Assembly: GCA_973895155.1 (NCBI GenBank)
Contig: OZ316893.1
Span: 10,049,660-10,113,659, forward strand
DNA from: Marsupella aquatica
Lineage: Eukaryota; Plantae; Marchantiophyta
Length of the DNA stretch: 64,000 bases
Direction of reading: 5' to 3'
Numbering within the stretch: position 1 is the stretch's first letter; each line of letters opens with the position of its first letter. The notes below the pieces were generated by a model that was given only the letters and a program-made list of their open reading frames with translations, was not told the DNA's origin and ran no database searches. Position numbers and translations under genes: made by a program. This document shows, one piece after another, positions 1 to 55,231 of the stretch.

Positions 1-228
1 TTCTTTTTTATTGTCCGATGCTGCATCCGATACTTAGAGGATCGGACTAGAATCGGACCTTACATGCCGAAAGCAAAAAAAACTAAGGCATGATCGAGCG
101 ACCTACGGGCATACAAAGACCTGTCCCGGGTTTGGAAGGGTTAGGCATTCGACAATTGGCCTCAGGTGATTAGGGAGGAGGAATGCTGCTGAAGGAATGC
201 ATGGAGAGGAGGGGAATGGAGCACTTAC

Positions 229-1224
229 AAAATCGGCCTTGAGACGCTGTGATCCGCCTTGCCCCATTCTGTGAGTAACCTTTGGCCTCTTTGTTACTCT
301 CAGCAGAGCTTTCATTAGCCAGGATGCTGGGTCTCCAAGCAGGGCTGATTTTGCTGACCATTCTTCAAGTTCTTGATGCATGGGTGCAGTATTCACCATC
401 TCTCCTTGTTCAATCTTCTTCTGAGCTGCTTGAATTTCAGCTTCCCAGCGTTGTGTGGCTTGCCAAGCTCGAACCTGCAACTCTTCTTCAAGCCAGGCAC
501 ACCAAGCATTCTCAGGAATCTCACCAGCTGGGCTTCCCCCTTTCCTGATCACCTCCTCATCCAGTTTGCATTCAGCCAGGTACTTTCGCATCTTCTCTCG
601 TACATGATTTTGCATGTCTGCAAGTGAGACTGAGATCTTTTTGTTTAAGAATCGATCGTCCACAAACGACCCATTCAAAAATCTCTCTTTGATTTGCTCT
701 CGAATTTGAAATCTCTCATCCTGCTTCTTCTTCCCCCAGTAGTCCATCGGGCCAAAATGAGACCTCACAATCTGCCTAACTTGACTCCCAAACAAACGAT
801 AACTCCTGGAGAGTGGAGCACCTCCCTCATTCAGAAACAATTTTGGCCTCTTGGCCCTATCATCTGCCTTCTTTCGTTCCTCCTGAATTCTTTGTCGTTC
901 TGCAGCCCAAGCCTCCCTCCTTAGGCTCTTCTCCTTTTGTCTTGGTGATAGGGCTTCCACTGGCCTCTCTCTCTCGTCCTCCCTAGTGTTACGTTTCCTC
1001 TTCCTCTGCAATCTCTCCTCCTCGAGTCTGGCTTGGAAAGCTTTTTCTGCATCAGTGATGGCTACCTTCTGGGAGCTGTCGATCAGTCCTTGAGTGAGCT
1101 GGGCTACCTGCAATGCAACCTCCGGTGAGAGCCCCACTTTCTCCCTAAACAATTGAGCCATGACTTCACCATAGCTGCTTGATGGCCCGGCACCATCTCC
1201 CATCCCTCCCGCATTCCCTTCCAT
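229..1224 (-). CDS. CACTA ORF2 / TnpA-like protein, first coding exon (element 1)
   Basis: Long basic coiled-coil ORF ending in THRMGQGG..LKADF, then a GTAAGT donor at 228. Homologous to THRLGQGG..LKAAF in element 2. The H-x-x-G-x-G-G motif resembles CACTA ORF2 (Transposase_24-like) proteins. Confidence 0.65.
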
Positions 1225-2289
1225 CGCTACGAGCTCTGCAAAGGTATCGTGAAATGCTCCCGATGCTTTTCCCGACTAGAGTGCCTTCGCACTTTAGTCG
1301 GGTGACCTAAAAACCCAAAATGCATAACGTCCGATACTTTCTGCATCGGAAACTCCGATTCTAGGTCAATCGGACTTAGTATCGGACCCCTCCTCCAAAG
1401 TATCGGACTTAACCCTCCCAATGTATTTTCTGATGGTTTGTGAATCGCATGACCTTGGCATTTGGACTTTTGCATTTGGATCCCATGTATACTATAATGA
1501 CCCCCTTTATGTTAGTTGGGGGTTAATTATGCTATATTGTGGGCTTATTAGGTGTGCGGCGCAAAACGGGCATATCAACGTACAGTGGCCGTGACAAAGC
1601 TAGCACACTATTTTTTGGTGGGTATGGATGATCATTGAATGTATGTACCCAGATCTATTTTCAGTTTGATTTTAAATGATTCCCATTTTGACCATGAGGC
1701 AATGCTATATGCATGGTGCAACTTTTGGGGACTATAAGAAGTCACAAATTAAATTAACACTCTAGTGCCGTTTTGTGCAGTTTTGTATTTTTTGTTTTTG
1801 GAGGGTCGGGTCGTTGCTTTTCCTTGGTTTTCTTAGTAGGGTTTATTTTTGCCAATGAATTATGCACAGCGAGAGTACGCGCATCCAAAAGGTATGACAT
1901 ATATGATCCTCCAAAATGTATTGGAAATATTTGACATGATATATGCGTTACTTGTGGGAGTTTATAATTGGACATCCAACTCGTCATTGATTTTTATTAA
2001 TTTCATTAATTATTGGTTTGTTACTTAGGTTTGCATGTATGTCATCTCATCTTTCAACTTCCCCACCTAGCCTGTATGTGCAGGTTTTTTTGGATTGGCC
2101 TTAGCATATAGTCTAAGGCTTAGAGCCTAGTAGGCACTGTAGAGCGCGGATATCATTCAGGTACTAATTAAGTCCAACACTGCAAATTATTAACATACTA
2201 TATATTTCCTGTTTGGGTTTACCTCAAGTTAGGGTGATGAATCAATCTTGCATTTTGGTAAAGACTTGTTTGTGTGTAATTGGCAGACA

Positions 2290-2520
2290 ATGTCGACTTC
2301 TGAGAGTTTGGATATAGATTCCGACTCTGACTTGTCTTCCTCTGAGGGGGACATTCCTCCTCCCCCTCAACAGCCTCGAGCACCCCCTCCATTAGGCCCT
2401 ATTCCATGCTGGTGTCTTAGATGTAAAGGACTGGTGGTTCGTCAAGCGTGGCAGTCCATTGAACACATCGAAAACTATGGTCGACATGAGGGTGATTTAC
2501 TGGGATATTCAGCTCGCCAG
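2290..2520 (+). CDS. Shared first coding exon: transposase-associated Zn-binding domain (element 1)
   Basis: ATG at 2290 just after a TGGCAG acceptor. Acidic/Pro-rich start, then CWCLRC...EHIENYG (C-x-C-x2-C...H, transposase-associated domain type). Phase-0 donor CAG|GTATTG at 2520/2521. Confidence 0.8.
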
Positions 2521-2630: not shown

Positions 2631-3593
2631 GTGCGTTGTAGGGCCCGTCCTCCATTGGTCTCTAGTCAACTATGGCATGATGCATTCCTAGCTGGTGCTA
2701 GACAGTTGCTTGCATCATCAGTTGAAGACCCCGAGCAATCATGTACCCCCGCACATGTTCAGGCAGATGTTGTTCATGAACCCATAGTGGTAGAGTTGGG
2801 GCATGGTAGGGATGATGCACCGCCCCCTACTAGGGTTCTACGCACAAGACCACGTTCTCATAGACGTCGACAACAGCATGTAGTTCTAGACACAGACCCA
2901 TCCCATGAGCACTTTAGAAGGAGTGTTATGCCTCCACCAGGGGAGGAGTACATAGAAGTTGAAGGGAGGTTGGGCTTGTCATATGTGATGGGAAAGGCAA
3001 TCAGTGTCTTCAAGGATTTTGACCCTGAGAGTTTTGCGATTCCTCGTGGCCTAGCCATTGACATCCCTGTACATATATGGGGTCGGCAATGGATAGTGAA
3101 GGCATCGACCCTTGGCGGGGAGGTTGGGTTAGGCTTATTTGCTTTGGAGGACATTGAGGTCCCTCCAAAGCCTTGGCGTCGTGGCTATGATGGGGAACAC
3201 CTTTTCCCTTACATTGGGCCTGTGTATACATCCAAGAGTTGGAACATCCTCTTGCGCCAACATCCAGCTTGGGGGGTATATGCATTGCAGATGGACTCAG
3301 ACCCAGATGAGGTCCTAAGGAGGCCTTGGCATTGTAGGATGATTGATGGGGACCCTGTCCGTTCAAATAACATAGCTGGGTACATCAATAGTACACATGG
3401 TAGAGGGAGTGGACTCCAGCCTAATGTAGAGTGGGCTCAGATTTTTGGCCCACCCACTCCGCCTTACTATGTCACACATATGGATGATCATGTTATGACA
3501 GTAGCCATACGGACCATTAGGGCGGGTGATGAGTTGTTTTGTGACTATGAATGGAACGCAACCACGATGGGCATTCGATCTGGCCACACTTAG
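2631..3593 (+). CDS. SET/PR-like lysine methyltransferase exon inside the CACTA transposase intron (element 1)
   Basis: Acceptor AATAG|GTG at 2630/2631, in frame with exon 2290-2520. SET motifs GLGLFALEDI, FPYIG, IDGD..NIAGYINS, PNVE, IRAGDELFCDY. No stops. Confidence 0.85.
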   Translation: MRCRARPPLVSSQLWHDAFLAGARQLLASSVEDPEQSCTPAHVQADVVHEPIVVELGHGRDDAPPPTRVLRTRPRSHRRRQQHVVLDTDPSHEHFRRSVMPPPGEEYIEVEGRLGLSYVMGKAISVFKDFDPESFAIPRGLAIDIPVHIWGRQWIVKASTLGGEVGLGLFALEDIEVPPKPWRRGYDGEHLFPYIGPVYTSKSWNILLRQHPAWGVYALQMDSDPDEVLRRPWHCRMIDGDPVRSNNIAGYINSTHGRGSGLQPNVEWAQIFGPPTPPYYVTHMDDHVMTVAIRTIRAGDELFCDYEWNATTMGIRSGHT

Positions 3594-3701
3594 CACATAT
3601 GTGTATTCCCCATTTTTGAAGTAATATAAGAATATTGTAGTTTTTTAGGAACCCATGGGCTAACTCAAACGTATATATGTGTTTTGTGCGTTGTATGATA
3701 G

Positions 3702-5927
3702 AATGCATATGTTGAGCCGGATGTTGGGGTGTTACCACGAGCTATGCGCCAACACCTTGTGCAGGCCATGGAAGATTGGCGACATGCCTCTCTACCACCA
3801 GATGGCGATCCGGATGTTCCAGAGCAGGAACCAGATGCCTCCCAATCAAGAGTTGATGAAGATAGGGCCATGGATGACTTGATGCACCAATTCTATGACA
3901 TAGAGGATGGTGATCATGACATGGCTGATGGGGAGAACATTGAGGTCCCACTTCCACATCAAGAAGGTTGAAGGAGTTCAGCCTCCAAACAGTGGGAGGA
4001 AGCACGTCAACATGCGCAAACTCGGATATTTGATGGATCACGCTTGTCTTGTCTTTCAGCAATAATGTTGTTGTTGAACTTGCAACAAAGACATGGAGCA
4101 AGCAACTTACTTCTTGATGATCTCTTTCGGACATTGCATGATTGTATCTTGCCAGAAGGAAACAACTTGCCAGACTCTTGGAAAGAGGCAAAGAAGGTGT
4201 TGAAGTCCATAGGTCTGCAGGACGAAGTCATACATGCTTGCGTGAATGATTGCGTTCTGTTTAGAGGCACTTATAAAGATGCAACGTCATGTCCTACATG
4301 TGAGAAGCCTAGGTATCGTGAGGACATGTTGACGGGAAAAGTTCCTCAGAAGGTCATGAGGTACTTTCCTCTTATACCTCGTTTGCGCCACCAATATAGA
4401 TGTGCTGAGTTGGATGAGTATATGGTTTGGCATTCCCAAAATCGCTCAGATATGAGTTCACAACCACCCACCATGTGCATGATGGTTGACTCCCCTGCAA
4501 ACAAGTTTGTGGAGGAGAGATGGGGTGAGTTCCGAACTGACCCACGTCATGTTCACCTAGGATTGGCAGCGGATGGCATCAGCCCATTTGCACTAGCAGG
4601 TAAGGCCCAACCATATTCACTATGGCCAATGGTCCTTACTAATTACAACATCCCTCCATGGATGTCCATGAAGAAGGGTCATTTGCTCCTTTCCATGATT
4701 ATCCCTAGTCCTAAGCAAGTGAAAAAAATTGATGTGTACTTGCAACCATTGATTGAGGAGCTACAAAAGCTTTGGAGTGGTGTGGATTGCTATGATGGTC
4801 GAGTGCAAACGGGGGGCTTACGTCGAGAATTTAAGTTGAAGGCCATTCTTATGTGGACCATACATGATCTTCCAGGTATGAATCTTTGTTAAATTATCCC
4901 TTCCCATAGCTAGGCAACCGTACCTAGCATACTTTGTTATGTATTGAGTTAGCTAGAAGCACATATATCTTTTAATAAACTTATTTACTTATGCATGGGA
5001 TATATATTTATATGCAGGGTTTGGATATATTTCTGGCCTGACCACATCAGGATATCAAGCTTGCCCAACTTGTGGACCTAATTTGGAAGGAATAGCGCGG
5101 CCAAAGTCAAAGACCTTGAGGAAGATAGTGTATATTGGTCACACCAAGTACCTCCCTCCAGACCATGATTGGAGGAGAGACCCCTTTTTATATGACACTG
5201 AGGATGGCCAACCAGACAGACGACCACAACCTATTCCAAAAGATCCTGCATATTGGAAAGAGGTATGGGAGAGAGTATCTAATCCAGATGACCCATTGCA
5301 ATATGCCCGGTGTGGCATGACTTGTTTGTCTGCATTGTCACAACTACCTTATTGGGCTGAGATGCCACTTAACCATTTATTTGACCCTATGCACATTGAG
5401 GGAAATGTTGGGAGGTCCTTGATTCGCCACCTATATGGAGAGAAAGACAACAACTGGAGAGAGAGTTGTGAAGAGATGGGGATGCATGGCCCTCATGGTT
5501 TTTGGCCATCTATGGATCCCGATAATGCCCCCCTTACTATTCATCCTCCTTGGGTTTTGACACGAGGTGAGCGGACCGAGTTTCGCAAACGCATAGGGTC
5601 TATGCGATTTCCTACAGGGTATGGTGCCAATCTTCGCAAGGCATTTGGTGGACTTGACTCTCCAAAATGGCCAGCTTTCTTGAAGACCCATGATTATCAT
5701 CGCTTATTGCAACATGTTATTCCAATTGCTATTATTGGATTGGGTAGTGAGGATCTTCGTGATGCCCTTTGGTCGTTGGGTAAGTTGTTGAGATGGGTGT
5801 GTCAAAAGGAGGTGAACGAGGATGAGGTTGCAGCAATGGAGGTGTTTGGAGTGGAGGTTGTGTGCAAACTTGAAAGGGCCCTTCCTCCTTCATTTTTTGA
5901 TGGTCAGGTTCATTTTCTACTACATCT
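3702..5927 (+). pseudogene. CACTA Tnp2/TnpD transposase, 5' part (exons 3702-4875 and 5018-5927)
   Basis: Phase-0 acceptor ATAG|AAT GCA at 3701/3702. In-frame TGA at 3969-3971. Motifs IHACVNDC..CPTC, LGLAADG, WPMVLTNYNIPP, WTIHDLPG, DPMHIEGN, LKTHDYH, FFDGQVH. GT-AG intron 4876-5017. Broken by copia at 5928. Confidence 0.9.
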
Positions 5928-6348
5928 TGTTGAGCATAGACGACGATCGCAACGGCAAGCCCATGAACCATCCAACGCACAATAGTCGACACAAGAGATA
6001 CGTGGTTCACCTCCTTGAGGCTACGTCCACGGGAACACACAAGAGAGCTTTACTGAACTCTAAGCCCGTCGGCTATACCGAGTCTCCACAGTGTAAGCTC
6101 TCCCTATCTCTCAAGTGGCTCCATAACAATGAGCCTTGGTTCTACCTCTCCAAGCACACATGCCTCTTATGATATAGTGTGCAACTTAGTTGTACCTAAC
6201 CACATAGTTGTACCTAATCACGTAGTTGTACCTAACCACATAGTTGTACCTAATCACGTAGTTGTACCTAACCACGTAGTTGTACCAACCCACGTTGTTG
6301 TACCAACCACGTCATACCTAACCTAGACGTAAGAGTAAATACCCAACA
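5928..6348 (-). repeat. Copia 3' LTR containing an 18-bp tandem array (TAGTTGTACCTAAYCACR, about 7 copies)
   Basis: Direct repeat of 12002-12422. Purine tract AAGGGGAAGAT adjoins it on the minus strand. Confidence 0.95.
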
Positions 6349-6539
6349 ATCTTCCCCTTGACTCTGGTCTAGGGGAGAGTAATACTGCCAATGTATATGA
6401 TCCCTCAGCGGGAAATTCTGGACAGAAACCAAACCGGTTTCCCTCTCTAACTAGAGCAAACCAGAACTAAGCCGTAGCCTAATACATAGGAATGAGGAAG
6501 AGCATATATCAGTAATTACAATGAATGTTTAAGAAAACT

Positions 6540-9500
6540 CTACTTGTGATGCAATTGCAAAACCTGCAATACGTCACGGTGTCTAGAGAAACTCTCCAAA
6601 GGAATCACTTTGGTAAATGCGTCAGCCGGGTTGAGTTTACCATCAATCTTGACTAGCTCAAACAAATTATCAGACACAGCCTGCCTGATAAAATGGTACC
6701 TGACGTCAATGTGCTTCACTCTGCTGTCCATCACCTGGTTCACAGCAAGGTGGAGCGCACTTTGACTATCACAATGGAGCTTCACATTCCCCTGTGGCAA
6801 TCCCATTTCAGTGATAAGTCTATCCAACCAAATCGCTTCCTTTGCTGCTTCCGCAGCTGCAACATACTCCGCTTCTGTAGTAGACTGAGCAATACACTTC
6901 TGCAAAGTAGACCTCCAACTTATGCATCCACCGCCAAGTGTGAACACGTATCCTGTTGTTGATCTCCTTCGGTCCAAATCTTGTCCATAGTCAGAATCTA
7001 CATAGCCAATCAATGATCTAGCATTCTTTGCATTCGCATCAAATAAAAGACCATGATCCACGGTACCCTTCAAGTACCTGATAATCCACTTCACTGCTTC
7101 CCAGTGTACCTTCCCTGGATTCGACATGTACCTGCTCACCTTGCCCATAGCCATGGCAAGATCAGGTCTAGTGCAAGTCATCAAATACATGAGACTCCCC
7201 ACTGCCTTGTCATATGGAACCTTTGACATCAACCCCTTCTCTGTGTCATCCGTAGAACATAACGCTGATGATAACTTGAAGTGTGGAGCCAACGGGGTAC
7301 TTACTGGCTTGCTATTCTCCATGTTGAACCTTGCAATTACCTTCCTCGCATAACTGCTTTGCGTCAACCATAGCTTGCCAGCCTCCAAGTCCCTAGTGAT
7401 CTCCATACCCAAAATCCTCTTAGCTGGCCCTAAGTCCTTCATCTTAAACTCTGCACTAAGCAGTGCCTTGAGCTTAACAATCTCAGACCTATCCTTGGCT
7501 GCAATTAGCATGTCATCCACATAAAGTACTAAAACAATGAACCCAAAGACAACATTCTTCACCGGTTTCAAATACACACAAGGGTCAAATACACTTCTGT
7601 GAAAACCTTGTGACCAAATCCAATCGTCAAACCGCTTGTTCCACTGTCTTGGTGACTGCTTCAACCCATACAAGGATTTCAGCAATCTGCAAACCAATTC
7701 CTCCTGTCCTCTCTTCACAAAACCTAGCGGTTGTCTCATGAAGATCACCTCTTCCAATGTGCCATAGAGGAAAGCTGTGACAACATCCATCTGATCTAGG
7801 AGCAGACCAAACATTACAACAAGTACACACAATAGTCGTATTGTAGAGTACTTAGCAACTGGTGAGAAGACCTCATTGTAATCCACACCTTTCTCTTGTG
7901 TGAATCCCTTTGCTACCAATCTAGCCTTGTAGACCTTCGATCCATCTCCTATGGAATTATCCTTCAGCTTGTAAATCCACTTGCTGTCCACCACTTGCTG
8001 ACCCTTAGGCAGCTTAACAAGCTCCCAAGTTTTGTTGTCCTTTAGTGACTGCATCTCCGTTTGCATTGCTGCAGTCCACTTCTGCTTCTCTTTTGAAGCA
8101 CTTGCCTCATGAAATGAAGAAGGTTCTCCTTCTTCCAAAATTAACGCATCACCCTCATCATCAGCTGTAAAATCATCCTCTTGCAGTTGAGATGAATCAA
8201 CCCACTGTCCATACCTTGATGGAGCGCGTACAGTGCGACCAGATGTTCTTCTAGCCGATGACTCCGGTTGATCTGCGTGTGCTGGTACAATTTGAAGCTC
8301 AACAGCATCCACTTGTTGCTCACCAGCATCAACAAACTCCTCTGGTTCCTCTGGCATAGGAACCAGCTCCATAATTGGAGCAACTCCTTCTCTCCGGTCA
8401 TGCACCTCATAACCAATCTCCCCCTCAATGAGATCCGGGATAGGAGATTTTCCTTTGTCAGTACGGGAGACCTGAGTATTCTCCCCCTCCTTCAATAATC
8501 TAGATTCATTGAAGGAAACATCCCTACTGACAACGAGCTTACAGGCAATAGGATCCCATAGCCTATAGGCTTTCACACCACTCTGGTACCCAAGAAAAAC
8601 ACATTTCCTGGAGGTAGGATCCAACTTGGTCCTATTCTGCTTTGGTGTGAGAGCATATGCATCACTTCCAAAAATTACCAAGCCATGATAGTCTGCTTGC
8701 CGCTTATAGCGCATCTCAAACGGCGTTTTGAAATTGATAGCACTAGAAGGAGAAAGATTTACCAAATAAGCTGCGGTATTGACAGCTTCTGCCCAAAATT
8801 CTTGTGGTAAACCTGATTGGCTCAACATACTCCGTGACCGCTCCAACAGTGTCCGATTGAGCCTCTCAGCGACACCATTCTGCTGCGGAGTATAAACTGT
8901 GGTGAGATGGCGAGTTATCCCCTGTTCTGAACAGTACTCTTCAAATTCCATTGAAGTGTACTCCCCGCCGTTGTCTGACCTCAGACTCTTCACCCTTGTA
9001 TCCAAACACTTGATCGTGTTTCCAGTCTGATTCTCCACCTGGGCCTTCCACTTCTTAAAAATGGACAAGACATCAGACTTATGCGTCATGAAATAAATCC
9101 ACACAAATCTTGAGTAATCATCAATAAATGATACATAGTACAACTTTCCAGAGTGTGAGGGAGTCGGGGATGGACCCCACACGTCACTATGTATGTACTC
9201 AAGAACCGCTTTGGAACGATGAGTTCCAACACCAAAAGCACGACGATGCTGCTTTCCAAGAATGCAATGCTCACAAAACTCTAATTTACAAGATTGCAAA
9301 TCAAAAATGAGTCCATTCTTCCGTAAGATAGCCAAACCCTTCTCACTCATGTGGCCTAGCCGTGAATGCCACAGTTGAGTCATCTCCTCGTGAGACTTGG
9401 TTACATTGGCCTCTCCACATACAGTATTGCCCTGTAACACATACAAATTCTTTTGTCTACTCCCCTTCAAAATCATTGTCTCTCCCGACCTGACTTGAAG

Positions 9501-9812
9501 TTCACCATCAATAACGCTCCATTGATGACCATTTGAATCCAACACACCGAGTGAAATCAGATTCTTATGCATGCCAGGTACATACCTGACTCCGGACACT
9601 ATGCGCACAGCCCCATCAAACATTTGAATCTTCACAGACCCAATTCCCTCAATTTGACAGGAGTGATCATTTCCCATCAGAACTGAACCGTTTGAAACAG
9701 AGTAAGAACTGAAAAACTCACGAATGTAACAAATATGAAAAGAGCAAGCACAATCAAGAATCCACACATCATCTGCTCTCCTAGATGACGTGTACAGGGC
9801 ATACCCCCGGCT
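6540..9812 (-). CDS. pol: Copia pol (protease, GAG-pre-integrase, integrase, RT, RNase H)
   Basis: WILDCACSFH, WHSRLGH..CEHC, FIDDYSR, LRSDNGGEY, QNGVAER, KARLVAKG, YVDDML, YVDSDY, KHIDVRYH. Open frame all the way back to the gag stop. Confidence 0.95.
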   Translation of the reverse strand, partial: SRGYALYTSSRRADDVWILDCACSFHICYIREFFSSYSVSNGSVLMGNDHSCQIEGIGSVKIQMFDGAVRIVSGVRYVPGMHKNLISLGVLDSNGHQWSVIDGELQVRSGETMILKGSRQKNLYVLQGNTVCGEANVTKSHEEMTQLWHSRLGHMSEKGLAILRKNGLIFDLQSCKLEFCEHCILGKQHRRAFGVGTHRSKAVLEYIHSDVWGPSPTPSHSGKLYYVSFIDDYSRFVWIYFMTHKSDVLSIFKKWKAQVENQTGNTIKCLDTRVKSLRSDNGGEYTSMEFEEYCSEQGITRHLTTVYTPQQNGVAERLNRTLLERSRSMLSQSGLPQEFWAEAVNTAAYLVNLSPSSAINFKTPFEMRYKRQADYHGLVIFGSDAYALTPKQNRTKLDPTSRKCVFLGYQSGVKAYRLWDPIACKLVVSRDVSFNESRLLKEGENTQVSRTDKGKSPIPDLIEGEIGYEVHDRREGVAPIMELVPMPEEPEEFVDAGEQQVDAVELQIVPAHADQPESSARRTSGRTVRAPSRYGQWVDSSQLQEDDFTADDEGDALILEEGEPSSFHEASASKEKQKWTAAMQTEMQSLKDNKTWELVKLPKGQQVVDSKWIYKLKDNSIGDGSKVYKARLVAKGFTQEKGVDYNEVFSPVAKYSTIRLLCVLVVMFGLLLDQMDVVTAFLYGTLEEVIFMRQPLGFVKRGQEELVCRLLKSLYGLKQSPRQWNKRFDDWIWSQGFHRSVFDPCVYLKPVKNVVFGFIVLVLYVDDMLIAAKDRSEIVKLKALLSAEFKMKDLGPAKRILGMEITRDLEAGKLWLTQSSYARKVIARFNMENSKPVSTPLAPHFKLSSALCSTDDTEKGLMSKVPYDKAVGSLMYLMTCTRPDLAMAMGKVSRYMSNPGKVHWEAVKWIIRYLKGTVDHGLLFDANAKNARSLIGYVDSDYGQDLDRRRSTTGYVFTLGGGCISWRSTLQKCIAQSTTEAEYVAAAEAAKEAIWLDRLITEMGLPQGNVKLHCDSQSALHLAVNQVMDSRVKHIDVRYHFIRQAVSDNLFELVKIDGKLNPADAFTKVIPLESFSRHRDVLQVLQLHHK

Positions 9813-10847
9813 TCATAAAACATACTCATCATTGAGTAAATCAGCTTCTCCATCAGCCCTAGCCACATTTGCCGATGAAGTTTCCGCTGCCTTTCCCTTA
9901 CAGTCTCGCTTGAAGTGTCCAACTTGGTTGCACTTCCAACATGTCACCTGCCTCCTCTGAGGGGATTTACCCTTGGACTTAGATCTGGATTTAGATCTAA
10001 ACTGGGTTCTACGGTCCCCAGTTGGTCGCTGCATACTCCTCCCACGGTTAACATTGAGGGCAGCATCAGATGATGAAGGCTGTGACGTGATGTGCATCTT
10101 CTGCTGAAGATCATCACTAAGCAGAGAACTTACCACGTCATTGTATGAAATGGTATCCCTATCACGATGCAACAACACTCGTGATAGGGACTGGTAAGAT
10201 GGAGGCAATGAACTAAGAAGCTGCAGAGCCTTCGTCTCATCATTCAAAGTCTCCCCAAGGTTTTCCAAGTCAATGACCATGTCGTTGAAAGCATCCACAT
10301 GGTCTTGCAACTTCGTACCAGATTCCTTCATTCTAAAACTCATCAGTTTGTAGGAAGTGTAGAGCTGGTTCGACAACTCCTTGCGGTGATACTTGCTCTG
10401 CAATTCCGCAAACAAGGACATGCAATCCTTATGTGCACCTAACTGCTTGATGATGGGAGGCATGAGATAGAGTGTAACACACCACACTCCCTGCTCCTGC
10501 ATGCGGTCCCATTGTTTCTCATCAACATCGTCTTCACGAGGGCTCAGCAGTTGGCCCATCCCTAACGCATAAAGCACTCCCTTCACCTGCTTCTCCCATA
10601 GCAAGTAGTCAGAGCGCCCATCATACTTTGTCACTTCATACTTGGGTCCCCCAAGCTTGAAAGTCCCCATCTTCTTCTTTACCGTGAGCTCCGGTAGTAG
10701 TACTGCTTCCTCCACCACACGCCGCACCAGTGATGGTATCGGTGTCACGTGCTCTTCCTCCTGCTCCTCTCTCTGCCCCTGAAACCTCCGCGGTGATCCT
10801 CGTGCTTCAAGTTCCACGTCTTCGAAAAACTCCTCCGAATCACTCAT
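9813..10847 (-). CDS. gag: Copia gag
   Basis: KYDGRSDYLLW, LLSSLPPSY, zinc knuckle CWKCNQVGHFKRDC. Ends in a TGA that is in frame with pol. Confidence 0.93.
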   Translation of the reverse strand: MSDSEEFFEDVELEARGSPRRFQGQREEQEEEHVTPIPSLVRRVVEEAVLLPELTVKKKMGTFKLGGPKYEVTKYDGRSDYLLWEKQVKGVLYALGMGQLLSPREDDVDEKQWDRMQEQGVWCVTLYLMPPIIKQLGAHKDCMSLFAELQSKYHRKELSNQLYTSYKLMSFRMKESGTKLQDHVDAFNDMVIDLENLGETLNDETKALQLLSSLPPSYQSLSRVLLHRDRDTISYNDVVSSLLSDDLQQKMHITSQPSSSDAALNVNRGRSMQRPTGDRRTQFRSKSRSKSKGKSPQRRQVTCWKCNQVGHFKRDCKGKAAETSSANVARADGEADLLNDEYVL

Positions 10848-11987
10848 ATGAGAAAGTCACAAAAAATGTTGTTTTTCACAACTTCTCAAAAAACTCGAAA
10901 CTCAACACCGCCGCGTAACCCACAAAGCTAGGAGTCCAATACTGAAAACCAAAATCAAAATTGAAATTTGACGGAAAAGTTATTCAAATTTCGGTCGAGG
11001 TGGGTAAAACCTTGGGAAACTCCCCCGTTTTGACCACCTCAGGGAATGACCGAAATACCAAGTACAACCCGTTGTCGGAATTGCGATGTGATTGGTGCGC
11101 TGCATTGCCAACTTCAATGGCTACGACCTTGCCGAAAAATAACCAAAAAAGTTACCGTTCGGCGGATGAAATCTTTGTCGGACGGTCAAAAAATAGCTCT
11201 CTGGTTTTTTGGAATATTCTATGACCCTTGTACAGTCCCTGTGGGAATTTTGGAAGAACAATCGAGGGGCTGACATGTGTCCTCGAACCCCCAAAACCCC
11301 CTACCACCCTTCGTCGTCGAAATCTGGTCGCGCGCGCAGAAAATACACACGGCAGAATGTACCCCTCGACACCAAACGCAAGATATCTCACTCGGGTTTT
11401 GACGAAATCAAGATCCGATTTCAGATTTGGAAACTAGACTCCGAGGCGATGAAGATCGATATAAGAAGCACCCAAAACGAGGAAAGAACGAGGGAGAAAA
11501 AAATTGGTAAAGATGACAGATTTCTCTCAATTGCCATAGCCAATTTCGAATCAGTTTTTCAAAGAGAAAAAAATGGTACCTTGTCAACAACGAATGTTGA
11601 TCAATTGCACTTGGTGCCGTCACCAAGTCCAACAAGGTAATTAATTTTGCTTAGCCTTCCTCTTTGCATCAAAGAGCCAATCCCGGACTCAAAAACAATC
11701 GTCTTGCCTCAATCTCTCCGTTGAGTCAAAACACTTGACGCTTCTCCCTCCGAGTCGATTGCCAACTTTCTTCACAAAATCCAGAACGACGAAAACTTAG
11801 ATCTCTCTGCACCACGAGCTCCGTTCAACGATTTCTTCACACCGTTAGAAAGCTCTTGCCCTGATCTATCCGTTGAGCCCATAAACTCCAAGTTCCATGC
11901 GATGGAACTCTGGAAAATCCACCAACACTCAACGCTGGAAAAACCGTCATGAAATCCCGTCACGAACACACGTCACCTCCCAAGCAT

Positions 11988-11999
11988 GCTCTGATACCA
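11988..11999 (-). promoter_or_regulatory. Primer binding site (initiator Met tRNA)
   Basis: TGGTATCAGAGC on the minus strand, 2 nt inside the 5' LTR. Confidence 0.9.
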
Positions 12000-12001
12000 A
12001 T

Positions 12002-12422
12002 TGTTGAGCATAGACGACGATCGCAATGGCAAGCCCATGAACCATCCAACGCACAATAGTCGACACAAGAGATACGTGGTTCACCTCCTTGAGGCTACGT
12101 CCACGGGAACACACAAGAGAGCTTTACTGAACTCTAAGCCCGTCGGCTATACCGAGTCTCCACAGTGTAAGCTCTCCCTATCTCTCAAGTGGCTCCATAA
12201 CAATGAGCCTTGGTTCTACCTCTCCAAGCACACATGCCTCTTATGATATAGTGTGCAACTTAGTTGTACCTAACCACATAGTTGTACCTAATCACGTAGT
12301 TGTACCTAACCACATAGTTGTACCTAATCACGTAGTTGTACCTAACCACGTAGTTGTACCAACCCACGTTGTTGTACCAACCACGTCATACCTAACCTAG
12401 ACGTAAGAGTAAATACCCAACA
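12002..12422 (-). repeat. Copia 5' LTR
   Basis: Near-identical to 5928-6348 (AACGGC vs AATGGC). Confidence 0.95.
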
Positions 12423-12427
12423 CATCT

Positions 12428-13469
12428 AGTGCGTGAGGTTGGTATTGCAGGCCCTGTACATTGTCGTTGGATGTACTGGGTAGAGCGGTACATGGGAGTG
12501 ATGAAGTCCTATGTTTCAAATCGCGCAAGGGTGGAAGGTAGCATTGCAGAGCGTCATCTTGGAGCAGAGAGCATGTTTTATTGTACAAACATTATTGCTA
12601 CACTTGATTCAAATGCTCCAAGCGGGTGGATAGATGAGGCATCAAGAGAAGCAGACTATGAGGATGACCGTTTGACAGGTGCAAAGGGAGAACGGCTTCT
12701 TGACCCTAGTGAGCACACTAAAATCACTGCATTCATGTTGTATAACTCTCCAGAGATTGTTGGGGAGTGGACCACATTTTATGAGGAGGATAAGCACAAT
12801 AGTCGACGACCACGCTTATTTCCCAAATTCCACATGTACATGAAGGGGAAGTTGTTAGAAGTGGATGCCTTGGTGGCTATTGGGGAGAGTGTATCACACT
12901 TCCCAATGGTGACTGATAAGTTGCGCACCTTGGTTCATGGACCTCTACTTACAGTTACAACCAGGACTGCCATGTGGTCCAAGGGGAGACACTTTCGTGT
13001 GGAACGACTTGATGACAAGAGGGCAGCTACACAAGATTGTGGGGTGATGGGTTGGTTCACCCAGGATTCTGTAAGTAGCAGATCTGACACAAATCCCATC
13101 CGTTCTACTATAGCTCACTATGGAAAGATAGAGGAGATCCTTGTTGTAAAATACCATGCGCATACAACATTGGAAGAGGTGGTGCTGAAGTGCAAATGGT
13201 TTTGGATGAATCTTGTTGGCCACAATCGAACATGTGAAGAGGATGCTTGCGGCTTCACACGACTGAAGACAGGGGCTGTCATCAGCTCAAATTGGAGGGC
13301 CTCAGATCCTTTTGCATTTCCTCATAATCTTGAGCAGGCATTCTATCTCCCTTATCCAGATGATCCTGAGTGGTCCATTGTAATGCCTTACATTCCACGA
13401 TCCCGATCCATAGTCCAAGAACAGCCAAATGTAGTTGTTGTGGAAGATTTGGAAAATGAGAACAACTAG
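12428..13469 (+). pseudogene. CACTA transposase, 3' part (DUF4218/DUF4216-like region)
   Basis: Removing the copia and one TSD restores HFLLHLVREVGIAGPVHCRWMYWVER. Also YGKIEEI, KCKWF, DPFAFP..QAFY. Confidence 0.9.
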
Positions 13470-14544
13470 CTACTTAGGAATTTCATGGTAAAAGCTAGGT
13501 AGCTAGCACTAGCTAGACCTAATTAATGACCACTTCCCTCCATGTATTGATTTTTTTGGCATATATATGTTATCTACATTGTCATTACCATTTTTTTGTT
13601 GCATGTTACTTTACTTATATATACCACTTAAATCTCTGGGCTCTAGCTGTGGCTATATATTTGTGCTTTTAATATATATGAAATGAAAGCTTCCAATTCA
13701 TTTCAAGTTGACCCTAGTTGAGTTCCCACATACTTCAAATGGAAATGGAGTCAAAAACCTATCGGAAACACAACATGCCTTAATTAGAAGCTAGGAAGAT
13801 GATAAAACCCTCAAAAAACCCCGGCTCTACTTAAAACCGATATTTCCGATATTCAAAGAAACGGAACACATATGCCATACTACAGGTATCGGGAAACTTT
13901 TCCATCTTTATCACATCGGAAATGACGTCCGTTTGTAATGGGTTCGGACACAAGTCGGAACACATTTCTGATTCCAAAAATATCGGAAATGTTTCGTCCC
14001 TAAGTTCATCGGAACCAACATGCGATATTTTATTTATCGGACGCCTCTTGCGTCACGGCAGTCTCATTGTCCGATGCAGGTAGAATGGGAAATTCTCCGA
14101 TAGTTTTTACATGGGAAACTATTTCTGATTCTAATAGTATGGGACAGTATGTGTCCGATGTAGAATTTCTGGTAAATCCCCGATGCGGGGACAATCGAAG
14201 AGTACCGATCTTCTCTGTATCGGAAAGTGTTGCCGACCGAAAGAAGAGCATCGGAAAAACCCAAAATATGTACCAGTGTTGAAAATCGTGTCACATTGAC
14301 CCAGTCAACATTTATGCATTTTTCTGTGTCTAGCTATGTTATTTTTGCATTTTTTCGCCTACTTACGATTCATACTGCGTCTTCCTCTTTCTCTCAAAAC
14401 CTGAGTGTCTAGGTTTGTTGGATGCGGCTTGACTTCTTCTTTCCAACGGTATAAAGAATGACACATTTGGTTTCCAGATCTTCCTACTCCGTAACATTTA
14501 CGTGCTTTCATTGGAGCTCTGCATGACAACTACATTTTTTCTAT

Positions 14545-16099: not shown

Positions 16100-18757
16100 A
16101 GGTCGGGGGGACAACTGCCTGTGTCACAACATGAACTCATTTGTCCAACTTGCACGTCTTGGTCTAATTTAACATTCACACTCTCACAGTCTGTAGTCTA
16201 CCCGGCTGTCTACTCAGTTCAGTGTACAAGAATCAAGTGCCTTAGTTTCATTACGATGCTACATGTCAATAATATGCTTGTCAGAGTGTATGCTTGGCTG
16301 TGCAAACAGACCCAGTCAAACAATTAATGCAGCAAACTGTTGTTGCTTACTGTTGGCAGCCATGTGGAAGATAGTAGCTTAGAGCAACACTCAACAATAG
16401 AGTTTCCAAGCACGCGGTAGGAAGACTAAATTTTGGTTGTATGTTTTCATTTGGTTCTACAAATCTCACATGCTTTTGATCAGATTGTCTTTTTTTCCCT
16501 TCAGAAGTGGTTGTTCTTTAAATTAGTGTTCCTTTGTCACCTCCGCCCTTGCTATTTGGGTGGATTGACTCATTTGTTGATCATGCCTCTCAGTATTGAG
16601 TCGTGTTCTTGTAACTCGTTGTGATTGGTAAGAGTTTTAATGCTCAACTTCTGGTTTTGTTCCTTTGTGTGGTGCAGTATGCTGCGTAAAGGCGTGGAAG
16701 GCCAGGACTATTCTCACATGCTGTGTGAAGGCCAAGACTATTCTCAGTGGTAAGTGCTGCTACATGATTATACTGTTGGACATCCTTAAGTCTCTATCGT
16801 TGTTTTGGAGCCTTTGTTAATTGGAAACTTCTTGTTATGGCATATCTGTTTGAATATATACCCTTTGATATTGGCTATGTGAGCACATGATGAAGTGTGA
16901 TCTTGGATGTGTTTGGCAGTCTAGGAAGGTGGATCGAGCTACCCCTTCTCATCTCAATAACTGGCCTAAACGTGGCATATATCCCTTTTTCTAATCCCCA
17001 TCAGCGCGGAGTTGTTGAGGCTTGAGCTGGTCTGAGCAGGGTTGCTGAGCTAACTTGAAGTGCACTTGATCATAGGTAACCTGCCCTCAATCTCTGTAGT
17101 CCAGAGTGTGCTGAAGATTGCCATAGCAAGATTTGTCCTATTGTGCTTGACTATTCCTAAAGGTCATTTTATGTTCATTAACAATAACCAAAGTCTAAAC
17201 TTGGAGGTCACAACTAAAAGTTTATGGAGGATTGTAATATCCCCTTCTTCCCACAATCCTAAATCAATCCATGAATCCTTCAAGTAAGCTGTTACGGACT
17301 GTACACCTTATCAAAGAAATCATCCCTGAGGCCAGCAGCTAAGTCGTTACGGCCAGTGCATTTCCTGAATCCGTTCCATGTTGTGGAGTCCCAATAAAAT
17401 CACTCCACTCTAAGTCAGCTATCATTCCAGCAATCCCACTTTATGAAATGGATTGCATTTTATCCCTACCAGCTCAAACCATGATGTGCAATTCAACTGT
17501 CTCTCACATCGTGTCCCCTTGGCCTCTCTGTGGTCAACTGAGCTAGCCTTCCTTTGAGGCAATACATTTATCAATTGCTGCATGAACCATGGCTTGTGCT
17601 GCGAAGCAAGTGACCTCGATTATCCTCCCAGTCGGCCCTGTCTCTGAAATAGATTTTCATGATTTCATATAGCACAAACCATGGTTTGCACATCTTTATG
17701 TTAAGTCTAATTCCACCACTCTGACCTCAACTCACCTTCCTTTGAGGCATTACATTTTCCAAACCTGGTGCCTTGTACCTATCGTGGCACAAACCATGGT
17801 TCGTGCTGTGAAGGGGTAATATGTGACTCCCACTATCACAACTCACATCTGGACTTGGCTGTCCTTCCAGCCAACAATTTTCTAGCAAATGGATTTACAT
17901 TTGTACTTGCAGCACAAACAAGGATTTGCACATCATGCATGTCCACCCAGTCCAATTTCTAATCTTAATCACTACAACACTATGCACCTCTTTTGCGAAC
18001 CACCACCCTTCGCATCATACAAAGGAAACAAAATCCAAAATACCCAATTTGCAAACTTACTCGCATCGCAACGTCTTCGCTACTTCCCATCTCAAATTCT
18101 TCGCAAACGGCCCTTTGCAACTACTTCGCAACTTGCGATTCTAAATACGTCGCAACATCTCCACAACGTTGCGACGGCACTGTTCTTGCAAATATTGAGA
18201 AACGACAAATTTCATTATTTTGCGAGAACAAATGAATCGCTCGTGTTGCGATAACATTTACATCGCAATTTCCGATGTTAAATTTCTCTGTAACTTGCGA
18301 TGCAAACAAACTCGTAAGATTGCGAGAAGCGGATAACCGCTTTGTTGCGAAGGCATTTAACTCGCAAACGTGTGGAGAGGAAGTCTTCGCTAGGGTTTTG
18401 ATTTAGACAACATCGCAAGTGTTGCGATGCGTTTCTCCTCGGAATGGTTGCGATACGTTCACCGTGGGTCTTTGAGATGGGGGTTGGTTCTCAAAAGCTT
18501 CGCAAAATGTATATTTCATGGGTTTTTGTGTATTTGGGTTAGGGTGAGGGTGAGGGAGACCATTCATGGGTTTTGAAGGAGGGAGGAAAGTGATGTTGAC
18601 CCAGTCTGCCGCAATTAAAATGGCATTACTGAAAAAGTACAAAAGTTACAAAATGGAAGGGTAAAAACCCTTAGGTAAAGTGCCACGGCCATGCATGCTG
18701 ATCGCTATACATGTGAACTCGATGTAAGTGCTCTAGCTACAACTTGTCTACATCAAG

Positions 18758-20854
18758 CTAGAAAGGAGTGTTCCTGCCCCTCCTTGCCTTCTTCCCCTTG
18801 GCCTTCTCCTTGCCCTTGTGTGCTCTTGGGGGGGGTGCAACATGGACTTCCTCCTCCTCTTGGTCACCCTCGGGGTCACCCTCATCCTCATCCTCATCCT
18901 CATCCCCACCTCCACCGCCCTGGCTTGCCGCGCTACCACCCCCAGCACCACTGGAACGTGCTGATGCAAATGACTGGTCTCCAGTGCTAGTTGGCCTGGC
19001 TTGAGTAGCAGGAGCTGTGCTCCCCTCCCCTGTCCCCTCCACATCCTCATCACTACTATCGGTGCCACCCTCGGTATGGGAGTCACCATCCTCCCCTCCC
19101 TGCTTCCATTAGCAAACCAGGGTGTCTGTTAGTCTCATATTCTTTACAAGTGTGAACAAAAGAGATATTCATTCAAAATTGCAATGAATGTAATAACCTA
19201 AAAATTCTCACCAATAATTCATCAACTTGCTGAAAGAGACGCTCCTTCCCATGTTTCTGGCCCACCTCCATCTCAGCCGCCGTAATCTTCCTCTTGTACC
19301 TCTTGTACTAAGCCAAAACAAAACCAGCACAATTGGGTTAACACCAACCCATAACCCGATTCACATGGCTTCTAAAAATTAGGGGGTTTGTTGGGGCTGG
19401 TGGGGTGGTGCATCAAGGTTTTGGGGTTATGGAGGGTGGCATATATGGGGAAGACCCTCAAAGAACACTTAAACGATCGGAAAATTTAAAAATTCAAATT
19501 TTTGAAATTTTGCGAAGGCGCCAACTTCGCAATCATAAGGACAATTACGTTTGCGAAGCTGGTTGCGATGCGAACGTCTTTGCAACGCCTTCGCAAACGT
19601 AAGCAAAAAAAGGGCATAATAAGGTTTGCGAAGGATTTGTGAAGCTACCCGCATCGCAAATGTATCGCAAACTCTGTCATGGCAAAAACCCGAGAGGGAA
19701 GCAACTGTACGTGACCTAATCTGACACAACAAGTCTAATTGTAACTACTTGGTGGAAATGCAAGAAAGAGTTGGCTCATTGCAGGTGTGTTGGAATAGGA
19801 ATTGGAGTAGCAAGAAGTCAAGGGAGGAGAGGGAGGTGCACTCACGAATGCTGCTTTGAGGCCGGGGAGGCCACCTTGACCCAGCCTGTGGGTGATGTTG
19901 GGCTTGTCTCGGACTCGCTCAGCTGCCTTCAGGAACTTGTTGGGTGGATCGCCTACTTCTGCTACAACCTGCTGGAGCTGGGCTACCTTCTGCTCCATCA
20001 CCTTCAGGTCCCGGTCAGACTTCCCGGCCTCCTTTGCCCTTCGAGCCTTTGCCAGCTTCTCTGTGAAATCATTGAGGAGCCTGGCTGCTTTCAACTTCAC
20101 CTCTGTCTGGTAGAAGGCCTGCCAGATATCTTCTGAGAATTGCAGCGGCCTCTGCAAATTCCTATACTCCTCCAAATCTCTAAGGTGAGACCTGATCTTC
20201 ATTCTATCATGGTATCTAGCTTGTGACATGGAGTTTGAAATTTTGTCAACAAGCCACTGTGAATCCATCTCTCCTCCATTTCAAAATGCATCTTTCACCT
20301 GATTGATGACTCGCTTCTGCTCTGCCTTTGAGCGAGTGCCCCACTCGACTCCTCTTGCAAAATTTGTGGATACAATGTGCCTGATTGTGCTCTTGGCCCC
20401 ATTGTAAGCAAGCTCGGTGGGAATCCCCTCATCCTCTAAAGTAATCAGAGGCAGCTTCCTCCTTGCTGCCTCCTTCTTTCTTTGCTCCTCCCTCTGTTTC
20501 CTGATCAGGTCTCTCTCATCTTTCCTCCTCTTCTTTTCCAATGCTTGAGGCGAGAGCACTCCAGCCTGAGCTCTCTCGTCCCTCTTTCGCTTCCTCTCAG
20601 CAGCCACCTGCTCTGCTGCCTTCCTTGCATCCTCCTCCACTGCTGCTTGCCCTGCAGTGAGACCTGCTTGCAAGGCTTGGCCCAGAAGGGCACTCAATGA
20701 TGCCAGCCCTGCTGGACTGGTGAAATCAATTTGACTCAACTATGCAACCAAAAAATGCTCATCCACAATCGCCTTCAATCGATCCCCCCCCTCGGTTGCC
20801 TCCGCTGCTGCCAGAAGCTCCTCCATCACCACCAGTCCCCTCTTCGCTCGCCAT
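18758..20854 (-). pseudogene. CACTA ORF2 / TnpA-like gene (element 2), multi-exon, disrupted
   Basis: Probable ATG at 20854, apparent frameshift in a G run near 20790, in-frame stops at 20740-20742 and 20281-20283. THRLGQGG motif, then GTGAGT donor at 19845. Probable last exon (about 19100-18758) has an acidic DEDEDE tract and a basic KGKKARRGR NLS-like end. Downstream exon boundaries are uncertain. Confidence 0.62.
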
Positions 20855-22630: not shown

Positions 22631-22737
22631 ATAAACCAACCTAATTGTTTTTTGAGTTCATTTTTTTTAAAATCGCTTTATATATGGCCTAATTTTTCCT
22701 AATCATGCCCTACATGCAATGTAATGTGGCAGTGGAT

Positions 22738-55221: not shown

Positions 55222-55231
55222 ACTGTTTACC

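What the first reader, a model, noticed from the sequence alone, without database searches (positions are those of the whole stretch)
3088..3555. SET active-site features resemble PR/SET (PRDM-like) domains more than canonical plant SETs
Seen in both copies: G-x-G-[LV]-F-A, F-P-Y-x-G, I-D-G-D, [YF]-I-N-S in place of the usual R-F-x-N-H-S, E-L-F-x-x-Y with the catalytic Tyr kept, a small residue (Cys/Thr) at the approximate F/Y-switch position, and no post-SET cysteines. Established: PR domains such as PRDM9 have FGPYxG and lack the His of NHS; PRDM9 writes H3K4me3 at sites where DNA is then cut; the switch residue controls methylation multiplicity. Inference: a possibly multi-methylating enzyme of non-standard origin, with a functional analogy of marking chromatin for DNA cleavage.
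Basis: partly seen in the sequence, partly recalled or inferred. Interest (0 to 1): 0.7.

Follow-up and report, generated by a model that had tools for sequence, protein, structure and literature searches.

The report
CACTA transposon's own SET methyltransferase exon
Two jumping genes of the CACTA type in this plant genome (likely a liverwort) each carry, just ahead of their transposase coding exons, a conserved exon for an unusual SET-fold protein; it is not the animal PRDM type, and it is predicted to be a lysine methyltransferase that the element likely uses to mark chromatin and resist silencing.

Summary
The motifs are real in both copies and conserved in a family of 68 full domains. The PR/SET reading is not supported: Pfam PRDM2_PR hits 0 of 67 members, the model's SET-I region is helical (PR domains have a beta sheet), and PR structures rank below Set1, EZH2 and SET8. 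The same His-less, Cys-less signature occurs in Legionella LegAS4, the best solved match by sequence profile (E 1.3e-7), an active histone methylase; by fold it is only tied. The small 'switch' residue is probably offset by a conserved aromatic (Trp160), so methylation multiplicity is open. The context matters more. Both SET exons lie inside CACTA elements (element 2: 17970-28864, CACTA ends, AAT duplication), between a zinc-motif first exon and the Tnp2 transposase, with matching phase-0 splice sites and dN/dS about 0.22-0.26. The likely product is an alternative splice form; no RNA was available. Relatives occur in Calypogeia, Riccia, Adiantum and Ginkgo. Transposon-borne SET genes are known (HarbingerS, oomycete MuDR, Helitrons, red-algal Plavaka), and this scan already noted the same layout three times in peat moss. 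New variant of a known kind.

The parts
2631..3593 (+). SET exon of element 1: Arg-rich linker, pre-SET extension (from about 2955), SET core (about 3090-3554), own stop codon
   Evidence: ORF; Pfam SET; AlphaFold models; AG acceptor at 2629-2630 in phase 0
2290..2520 (+). Predicted first coding exon of element 1 (Ser/Pro-rich, CxCxxC..H motif), likely shared by the SET form and the transposase
   Evidence: GT donor at 2521, phase 0, GC 0.51 against 0.32 in the intron; same motif heads transposases P0211 and P0212; the Calypogeia gene model P0001 joins its tail to the SET exon. No Pfam hit for this exon itself
3594..3701 (+). AT-rich segment after the SET stop, ending in the AG acceptor of the transposase exon
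   Evidence: GC 0.32, like the intron; TAG|AAT junction
3702..13469 (+). Tnp2 transposase exons of element 1 (3702-4877, 5017-5927, then on past 12422 to 13469); one premature stop at 3969-3971 and a Copia insertion
   Evidence: Pfam Transposase_21, DUF4218, DUF4216; other copies have a sense codon at 3969-3971
5928..12422 (-). Ty1/Copia retrotransposon inserted in the transposase of element 1
   Evidence: 421-bp LTRs with 1 mismatch; 5-bp duplication CATCT; gag and pol ORFs
103..1275 (-). Divergently oriented left gene of element 1, no Pfam family, possible TnpA-like accessory gene
   Evidence: 33% identical over 319 aa to the left gene of element 2, E 8e-33; no Pfam or NCBIfam hit
13761..14278 (.). 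Right subterminal repeats (ATCGGA/TCCGAT) and right terminus (reverse complement CACTGGTAC) of element 1; the left end lies outside the window
17970..28864 (+). Complete CACTA element 2 (10,895 bp): CACTAC.ACA termini, 3-bp AAT duplication, TTGCGA/TCGCAA subterminal repeats
22738..22962 (+). Predicted first coding exon of element 2 (CxCxxC..H motif)
   Evidence: GT donor at 22963, phase 0
23074..23904 (+). SET exon of element 2 (second copy of the finding)
   Evidence: ORF; Pfam SET; AG acceptor in phase 0
24116..27509 (+). Tnp2 transposase exons of element 2, with three TAG stops (24608, 25271, 25536)
   Evidence: Pfam; stops
18748..21051 (-). Left gene of element 2, in several ORF pieces
   Evidence: ORFs; tblastn match 19816-20724 to the left gene of element 1

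Best explanation
This is a divergent SET-fold domain, not a PR domain, carried inside CACTA transposons; it is likely made as an alternative splice form of the transposase gene and is predicted to be a protein-lysine methyltransferase that likely marks chromatin at the element to hold off host silencing. Shown: SET fold and motifs, position inside two CACTA elements, purifying selection, a family across liverworts with farther relatives in a fern and Ginkgo. Inferred (about 0.75): one promoter; exon 1 is spliced either to the SET exon, which ends the transcript's reading frame and gives a roughly 350-400 aa zinc-motif plus SET protein, or past it to the Tnp2 exons. Inferred (about 0.8): the enzyme is active, with Tyr86, Trp160 and Tyr198 lining the lysine channel and GxG, Asn145 and perhaps the aromatic at 200 binding SAM. 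Inferred (about 0.5): the substrate is a histone and the effect favours the element's own expression or mobility, with targeting through the shared zinc-motif exon or the left-gene product. The target lysine and the number of methyl groups cannot be read from the sequence.
For: Element anatomy: termini, AAT duplication and subterminal repeats, Tnp2 domains. Phase-0 donor and two phase-0 acceptors in both copies; the same exon 1, donor, SET acceptor and a matching downstream AG|AAT at the contig's end in locus L001. The segment after the SET stop has intron-like GC, 0.32-0.33 against 0.47-0.51 in exons. The CxCxxC..H motif heads 2 of 5 newly fetched long transposases (weak Transpos_assoc hits E 0.0056 and 0.031) and also precedes SET in Calypogeia and Riccia gene models. 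3 of 71 family proteins scanned carry Transposase_21 in the same gene model, 2 of them named Riccia. Selection: dN/dS 0.22-0.26 in three pairs; 24 of the 40 listed variants among related copies are synonymous against 22% expected, p 2e-7. Catalytic residues kept in 63-68 of 68 domains. A His-less, post-SET-Cys-less SET of this type is active: RomA/LegAS4 trimethylates H3K14 (PMC10653858; alignment). Precedents: En/Spm makes TnpA and TnpD by alternative splicing (PMC13547354); SET genes ride in other transposons.
Against: No RNA evidence for either splice form and no activity data. Exon 1 itself has no Pfam hit. The protein ends 2-14 residues after the catalytic Tyr in the two copies, so it lacks the post-SET segment that helps bind substrate in LegAS4 and PRDM9 and may need a partner. 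Both elements here have broken transposases, so these copies are not autonomous; that both SET frames are open is not significant (three stops in about 1000 transposase codons of element 2). The 40 variants are the best supported of 152 rows and come from four runs of several organisms. For the fern and Ginkgo relatives no transposon context was seen. Anti-silencing is an analogy; nothing here shows the direction of the effect.
Confidence: 0.5

Rival explanations
1. The enzyme is active but methylates a non-histone protein, such as the element's own transposase or left-gene product, or a host silencing factor, to tune transposition.
For: It is a minimal SET without reader or post-SET parts. 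The fold is tied among Set1, EZH2, SET8, SET7/9 and LegAS4, so no histone site is indicated. It likely shares its N-terminus with the transposase.
Against: Most of the nearest solved relatives act on histones. No call tested binding to either partner.
Confidence: 0.2
2. The enzyme writes a mark that guides or licenses cutting by the transposase at element ends or target sites (the first reader's PRDM9-like analogy; RAG1/RAG2 reading H3K4me3 would be a nearer parallel, recalled).
For: SET and a DDE transposase lie in one transcription unit. CACTA and RAG1 belong to one transposase clade (PMC12730594).
Against: No PR affinity, no zinc-finger array, and no methyl-lysine reader domain found in the transposase exons or left gene.
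Confidence: 0.12
3. The enzyme writes a repressive mark, so the SET isoform is a self-limiting brake, and splicing to it also diverts transcripts away from the transposase.
For: A terminal exon in the first intron would cut transposase output by itself. EZH2 is among the tied structural matches and second by profile.
Against: The EZH2 profile match covers only the two short terminal motifs. Nothing shows a repressive mark.
Confidence: 0.1
4. It is a catalytically dead or passenger domain: a lysine-binding module, or captured host sequence carried without function.
For: Loss of Arg and His of the usual RFxNHS motif and of any post-SET segment; some PR and SET domains are inactive (PMC4146578).
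Against: Purifying selection; Asn145, Tyr198, GxG and the channel aromatics are kept across members down to about 25% identity; LegAS4 is active without the His.
Confidence: 0.06
5. It is a true PR/SET (PRDM-type) domain that reached plants by transfer or deep ancestry.
For: FPYxG, IDG and the missing His. PRDM3's PR domain aligns over all 119 residues, Z 10.9 and 11.7, rmsd 2.5-2.7. One distant family member, P0184, has a sub-threshold PRDM2_PR hit (E 5e-5, weaker than its SET hit). Three of the 12 Atlas rows shown carry PRDM2_PR on 10-19% of members.
Against: 0 of 67 PRDM2_PR hits; helical SET-I; by profile, PR domains score only E 0.047-0.066 over the N-terminal motif against 1.3e-7 for LegAS4 over the whole domain; PRDMs are described as metazoan only.
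Confidence: 0.03

Closest known systems
Transposon-borne SET genes: HarbingerS and MuDR families of Phytophthora (cited in PMC12730594), Helitrons and Plavaka accessory gene PAG2 of red algae (bioRxiv 10.1101/2025.02.11.637652)
   Same: A DNA transposon carries a SET domain; Plavaka is in the same EnSpm/CACTA superfamily. Function is proposed, not shown, in the passages read.
   Different: Here the host is a land plant and the transposase is the Tnp2 type. SET appears to be an exon in the first intron of the transposase gene rather than a separate gene, and it is not fused to an adenine methylase as in PAG2. Homology to those SETs was not tested; no sequences were at hand.
Maize En/Spm and Arabidopsis EN/SPM3 and 7 (TnpA and TnpD by alternative splicing; PMC13547354, passages)
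   Same: CACTA ends, 3-bp duplication, subterminal repeats, and one transcription unit that likely gives two proteins.
   Different: The second product here would be a SET protein, and a separate divergent left gene is present.
Legionella RomA/LegAS4 (H3K14 methyltransferase; PDB 5CZY, 8SWI)
   Same: Best solved match by sequence profile over the whole domain (E 1.3e-7). Shares YxGxVY followed by a helix, a YA motif, GN..xYIN with no His, N-x-E-aromatic, a small residue two before the catalytic Tyr, and no post-SET cysteines in the stretch shown.
   Different: Only 22-29% identical. No ankyrin repeats or post-SET segment here. By fold it is first with one model and sixth with the other in Foldseek, and fifth to eighth in VIA. 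Shared ancestry is not shown; it may be convergence among minimal SETs.
PRDM PR/SET domains (PRDM9, PRDM3, PRDM5)
   Same: SET fold, FxPYxG-like strand, no His in the NH motif, small residue before the catalytic Tyr.
   Different: No PRDM2_PR match, helical SET-I, no C2H2 array, plant host, lower structural rank.
VANDAL/VANC anti-silencing system of Arabidopsis (cited; not read)
   Same: A transposon accessory protein that would act on the element's own chromatin.
   Different: VANC is described as a sequence-specific inducer of hypomethylation in a MuDR family; here the accessory protein is a predicted enzyme with unknown targeting.

Membership tests
PR/SET (PRDM) | Match to the PR-domain profile (Pfam PF21549 PRDM2_PR) | tested here: not met
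   0 of 27 and 0 of 67 members; the model is in the library and weakly hits 1 of 71 other proteins, P0184. HMMER filters drop most matches above E 0.1.
PR/SET (PRDM) | Three-stranded beta sheet in SET-I (PMC4146578) | tested here: not met
   Both models have two helices there (residues 93-102 and 104-109 at pLDDT above 90). Predicted models, not solved.
PR/SET (PRDM) | Closer in structure to PR domains than to other SETs | tested here: not met
   10 PR structures are listed in each wide search, Z 7.4-10.9 and 7.9-11.7, none in the top 8; top Z 12.2 and 13.0. The best PR is tied with several canonical SETs, so the fold does not exclude kinship.
PR/SET (PRDM) | C2H2 zinc-finger array; metazoan distribution | tested here: not met
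   No zinc-finger array in the SET ORFs or above cut-off in 71 relatives; named relatives are land plants.
PR/SET (PRDM) | Loss of the His of the RxxNHxC motif | tested here: met
   Ser in 65 of 68, His in none; not diagnostic, as LegAS4 has Phe there.
PR/SET (PRDM) | Nesting among PRDMs in a phylogeny | not testable with these tools
   No PRDM sequences could be obtained from a tool; the tree holds none.
SET-domain lysine methyltransferases | SET fold with GxG, the Asn of the NH motif and ELxxxY | tested here: met
   Pfam SET in 65 of 67; Z 11-13 to solved SETs; residue counts.
SET-domain lysine methyltransferases | SAM binding and methyl transfer | not testable with these tools
   No assay; no ligand docking was run and the model coordinates were not inspected.
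Ordinary plant SDG classes (ATX, ASHH, SUVH, E(z), ATXR5/6) | Companion domains (pre-SET, AWS, SRA, PHD, post-SET cysteines) | tested here: not met
   None in 71 relatives scanned; no post-SET CxC..C in 59 of 59 tails.
Ordinary plant SDG classes (ATX, ASHH, SUVH, E(z), ATXR5/6) | Nesting within an SDG clade | tested here: inconclusive
   No tree with SDG sequences. By profile ATXR5/6 score E 0.24-0.27; by fold SUVH6 Z 10.2-11.9, ATXR5 9.8-10.6.
CACTA/EnSpm transposon | CACT[AG] termini, 3-bp target duplication, subterminal repeats | tested here: met
   Element 2 complete with AAT duplication; element 1 right end only.
CACTA/EnSpm transposon | Tnp2 transposase (Transposase_21, DUF4218, DUF4216) | tested here: met
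   Both elements, both broken.
CACTA/EnSpm transposon | Alternative splicing of one transcript into two proteins | tested here: inconclusive
   Splice sites and phases fit in two copies and L001; not seen in RNA.
RomA/LegAS4 family | SET domain followed by post-SET segment and ankyrin repeats | tested here: not met
   Proteins end a median 5 residues after the catalytic Tyr; no ankyrin hit.
RomA/LegAS4 family | SET domain more akin to LegAS4 than to other SETs | tested here: inconclusive
   First by profile and by Foldseek with model 1; sixth with model 2; tied in VIA. Not found with the smaller profile.
Plavaka PAG2 / HarbingerS SET genes | Homology of the SET domain to those elements' SETs | not tested

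The most novel reading that the evidence does not exclude
Land-plant CACTA elements have long carried their own lineage of minimal, His-less histone methyltransferases, nearer to the Legionella RomA type and to algal or protist SETs than to any host SDG class. It is spliced onto the transposase's zinc-motif exon and writes a non-canonical mark (an H3K14me-like one, for example) on the element's own chromatin. This would be a catalytic anti-silencing system switched by alternative splicing, spread from liverworts to ferns and Ginkgo and apparently absent from the flowering-plant elements described.
Probability: 0.2. Interest if true: 0.8.

Novelty: new variant of a known kind. Interest (0 to 1): 0.5.

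Why it matters
Few transposon proteins are known to act on their own chromatin, and in the passages read the transposon-borne SET genes are only proposed to do so. This family is small, folds confidently, needs no large complex on its face, and sits in plants related to a tractable model (Marchantia), so the question 'can a transposon write its own histone mark?' becomes testable. It is also a SET subfamily with natural Tyr/Phe variation at one channel position (45 Tyr, 22 Phe of 68) and Trp/Phe/Tyr at another, a ready series for product specificity. The PRDM9 parallel should be dropped.

Tried and rejected
No whole genome is held, so copy number and empty sites were not measured. No RNA holder listed among 13 runs; the runs laid were contigs that cover the introns. 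Single-sequence search of solved structures: 0 hits at E 10. The 27-sequence profile gave only weak EZH2/MLL hits (E 0.064 or worse) and no LegAS4. No relative among 14 pattern matches in viral contigs or in 50,697 phage records; BFVD gives generic viral SETs, best E 1.2e-6 at 19% identity. The one metagenome scan gave 4 loci of 167 matches: L001 (same layout), L002 (family member, too short for context), L003 and L004 (ordinary bacterial SETs with NH, not kin). No PR domain is among the rows; the wide searches were run for that reason. The tree (quick method, 68 rows, four near-identical Adiantum-type rows left out, three distant outgroups on long branches) groups copy 1 with the Calypogeia protein (99) and copy 2 with L001 (100) but cannot place the family's origin. 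One dN/dS pair (second transposase exon) was out of frame and is discarded; the first transposase exon was saturated. A SET-transposase fusion by splicing was considered: my donor pattern finds no site inside the SET ORF of copy 1 and none near the stop in any of the three loci; fused Riccia gene models are predictions. NCBIfam: nothing for either SET. The Atlas could be searched only with homologue P0001. Complex prediction was not used: no histone sequence was at hand and no binding is claimed. The genome-contig scan was not used, so bacterial kin were not sought at DNA level.

Full report
Observation. The finding lies in ORF 2631-3593 (+). A second copy is ORF 23074-23904. Pfam gives SET only, E 1.1e-7 and 8.8e-5. 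Residue numbers below count from window 2955.

The family. A single-sequence search gave 5 relatives, the best from the liverwort Calypogeia fissa at 71% identity. The profile gave 25. Over 1.84 billion representatives it gave 178 at E 0.001 or better, 150 listed. Of 30 proteins looked up by cluster, named ones came from Calypogeia, Riccia sorocarpa, Adiantum nelumboides and Ginkgo biloba; the rest had no organism. The host is therefore probably a liverwort or another bryophyte; this is inferred, not shown. In 68 full domains (of 169 sequences examined) the kept residues are Gly58 64, Gly60 67, Tyr/Phe86 67, Gly88 66, Tyr91 65, Tyr109 63, Asn139 64, Asn145 63, Ser146 65, Asn157 68, Trp/Phe/Tyr160 66, Glu193 68 and Tyr198 67. 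Position 196 is small or aliphatic in 67. Tails are short (median 5 residues) and none of 59 has post-SET cysteines.

Is it PR-like? Four tests say no. First, PRDM2_PR matches 0 of 27 and 0 of 67 members, though it is in the library. Second, two AlphaFold models (pLDDT 91, pTM 0.85-0.86) show two helices in SET-I, while PR structures have a three-stranded sheet there (PMC4146578, passages). Third, against 48,161 representative chains the top matches are Set1, ctEZH2 and SET8 (Z 11.9-13.0). The best PR domain, PRDM3, ranks ninth both times (Z 10.9 and 11.7) and PRDM9 scores 9.9 and 10.5. Fourth, the 67-sequence profile matches PR domains only at E 0.047-0.066 over the first motif. The fold alone does not place the family.

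What the active site resembles. The same profile finds Legionella LegAS4 at E 1.3e-7 over the whole domain, ahead of EZH2 at 1.3e-4 on two short motifs. LegAS4 also has no His in the NH motif and an Ile two before the catalytic Tyr. RomA/LegAS4 is an active H3K14 trimethylase (PMC10653858, passages). I mapped residues by hand from the alignment to that paper's numbering, checking the offset against its Table 1: Tyr86 = Tyr148, Tyr109 = Tyr172, Asn145 = Asn194, Trp160 = Phe204, Tyr198 = Tyr233. Four of the six residues changed in the inactive allele of bioRxiv 10.64898/2026.05.29.728679 (passages; numbering 13 lower) thus have conserved counterparts here. The structural ranking is less clear: LegAS4 is first in Foldseek with model 1, sixth with model 2, and tied in VIA. 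The Atlas, searched with the Calypogeia homologue, gives streptophyte and haptophyte SET clusters first. Origin is unresolved; 'not an ordinary SDG' is likely.

Multiplicity. The Phe/Tyr switch is Tyr334 in SET8 and Tyr305 in SET7/9 (PMC3356298, passages). That Tyr305 lies three residues after the 'PN' Asn, where this family has Trp160, is recalled and not checked by a call. Suv4-20 shows that the switch residue can come from another part of the chain (PMC3874154, passages). A small residue at 196 therefore does not by itself imply multi-methylation. Position 86 matters too: the G9a Y1067F change adds a third methyl; I take that Tyr as the counterpart of position 86 from recall, and 22 of 68 members have Phe there. 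Both window copies have Tyr86 and Trp160.

Context. Both SET ORFs lie directly 5' of Tnp2 transposase exons. Element 2 spans 17970-28864 with CACTAC.ACA termini, an AAT duplication and subterminal repeats. Element 1 ends at 14278 and runs off the left edge; a young Copia (LTRs differ at 1 of 421 bases) splits its transposase. Each element has a divergent left gene; the two are 33% identical. Upstream of each SET exon is a short exon with a CxCxxC..H motif and a phase-0 donor. The SET exon and the first transposase exon both begin at phase-0 acceptors, and the DNA between the SET stop and the transposase acceptor has intron-like GC. Locus L001 repeats this layout up to the end of its contig. 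The same motif heads 2 of 5 long related transposases. The simplest reading is an alternative terminal exon in the first intron of the transposase gene, as En/Spm makes two proteins from one unit (PMC13547354, passages). It is not seen in RNA.

Selection. dN/dS for the SET region is 0.255 (copy 2 against L001), 0.227 and 0.218 (the last two near saturation). Of the 40 best-supported variants among related copies in four runs (152 rows in all), 24 are synonymous against 22% expected, p 2e-7. Many contigs at 80-100% identity lie on copy 1, which fits a multi-copy family with several subfamilies. Both transposases here are broken.

Mechanism. Shown: fold, residues, position, selection. Inferred: the splice switch (0.75), activity (0.8), and a histone substrate with an anti-silencing effect (0.5 overall). 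Rivals are a non-histone substrate, a mark that guides cutting, a self-limiting brake and a dead domain.

What is known. SET genes are reported in HarbingerS and Phytophthora MuDR elements (PMC12730594, passages) and in Helitrons and red-algal Plavaka PAG2 (bioRxiv 10.1101/2025.02.11.637652, passages). Five searches aimed at this listed no paper on SET-bearing CACTA elements of land plants; I saw listings and read passages of PMC8616336, PMC11982613 and the papers above. PMC4919437 and PMC3980110 were read as passages for background. Repbase Reports, most subscription journals and bioRxiv supplements (Bostrychia Table 6 and Figure 13; the LegAS4 alignment figure) were not seen and could hold an earlier description. 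This scan noted the same layout three times in peat moss, after I had written my reading down; those notes are unchecked and are not counted as support.

Verdict. Observation confirmed; PR/PRDM9 reading not supported; the real object is a conserved SET exon of bryophyte-type CACTA elements. New variant of a known kind, interest 0.5.

Noticed in passing
window 29544-35966 (+): A run of long ORFs with no Pfam family except an FCP1/NIF-like phosphatase at 35364-35966 (E 7.6e-10). ORF 29544-30899 has an IIGGQH stretch that recalls ParB-like motifs (recalled, untested). AACCATGGTT repeats at 17476-17792 and 28896-29361, also 30941, 32929 and 36488, flank element 2 on both sides, so element 2 may have inserted into the repeat region of a larger mobile unit.
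   Followed up: partly
window 1330-1402; 19510-19665 and 20952-21020: Each element's own subterminal hexamer also forms internal clusters around the left gene, which recalls the internal binding motifs of VANDAL elements (comparison recalled).
   Followed up: no
window 103-1275 (-) and 18748-21051 (-): Divergent left genes of both elements, homologous to each other, with no Pfam or NCBIfam family; candidates for a TnpA-like or anti-silencing protein.
   Followed up: partly
window 24608, 25271, 25536: All three stops in the element 2 transposase are TAG at positions where Trp is expected, a pattern that fits decay by cytosine deamination.
   Followed up: partly
window 21960-22500: Two tandem near-copies of an untranslated-exon-like block upstream of exon 1 in element 2, partly shared with element 1 (2126-2178) and L001; probably 5' UTR exons.
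   Followed up: no
proteins P0111/P0205 and P0125/P0207: Calypogeia carries divergent family members with long, unrelated N-termini, each in two near-identical records; P0125 has lost the catalytic Tyr. Possible domesticated or re-mobilised copies.
   Followed up: no
proteins P0183, P0192 (named Adiantum), P0178, P0187, P0194: Near-identical SET domains fused in gene models to unrelated pieces, which suggests a high-copy mobile family in the fern.
   Followed up: no
window 43737-49142 (-): UDP-glycosyltransferase gene pieces (Pfam UDPGT for 47140-47973), host genes.
   Followed up: no
window 37140-39196 (+), 53248-57010 (+), 58877-64000 (-): Further Copia-like, LINE-like and chromodomain-bearing Gypsy-like ORFs, read from translations only.
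   Followed up: no
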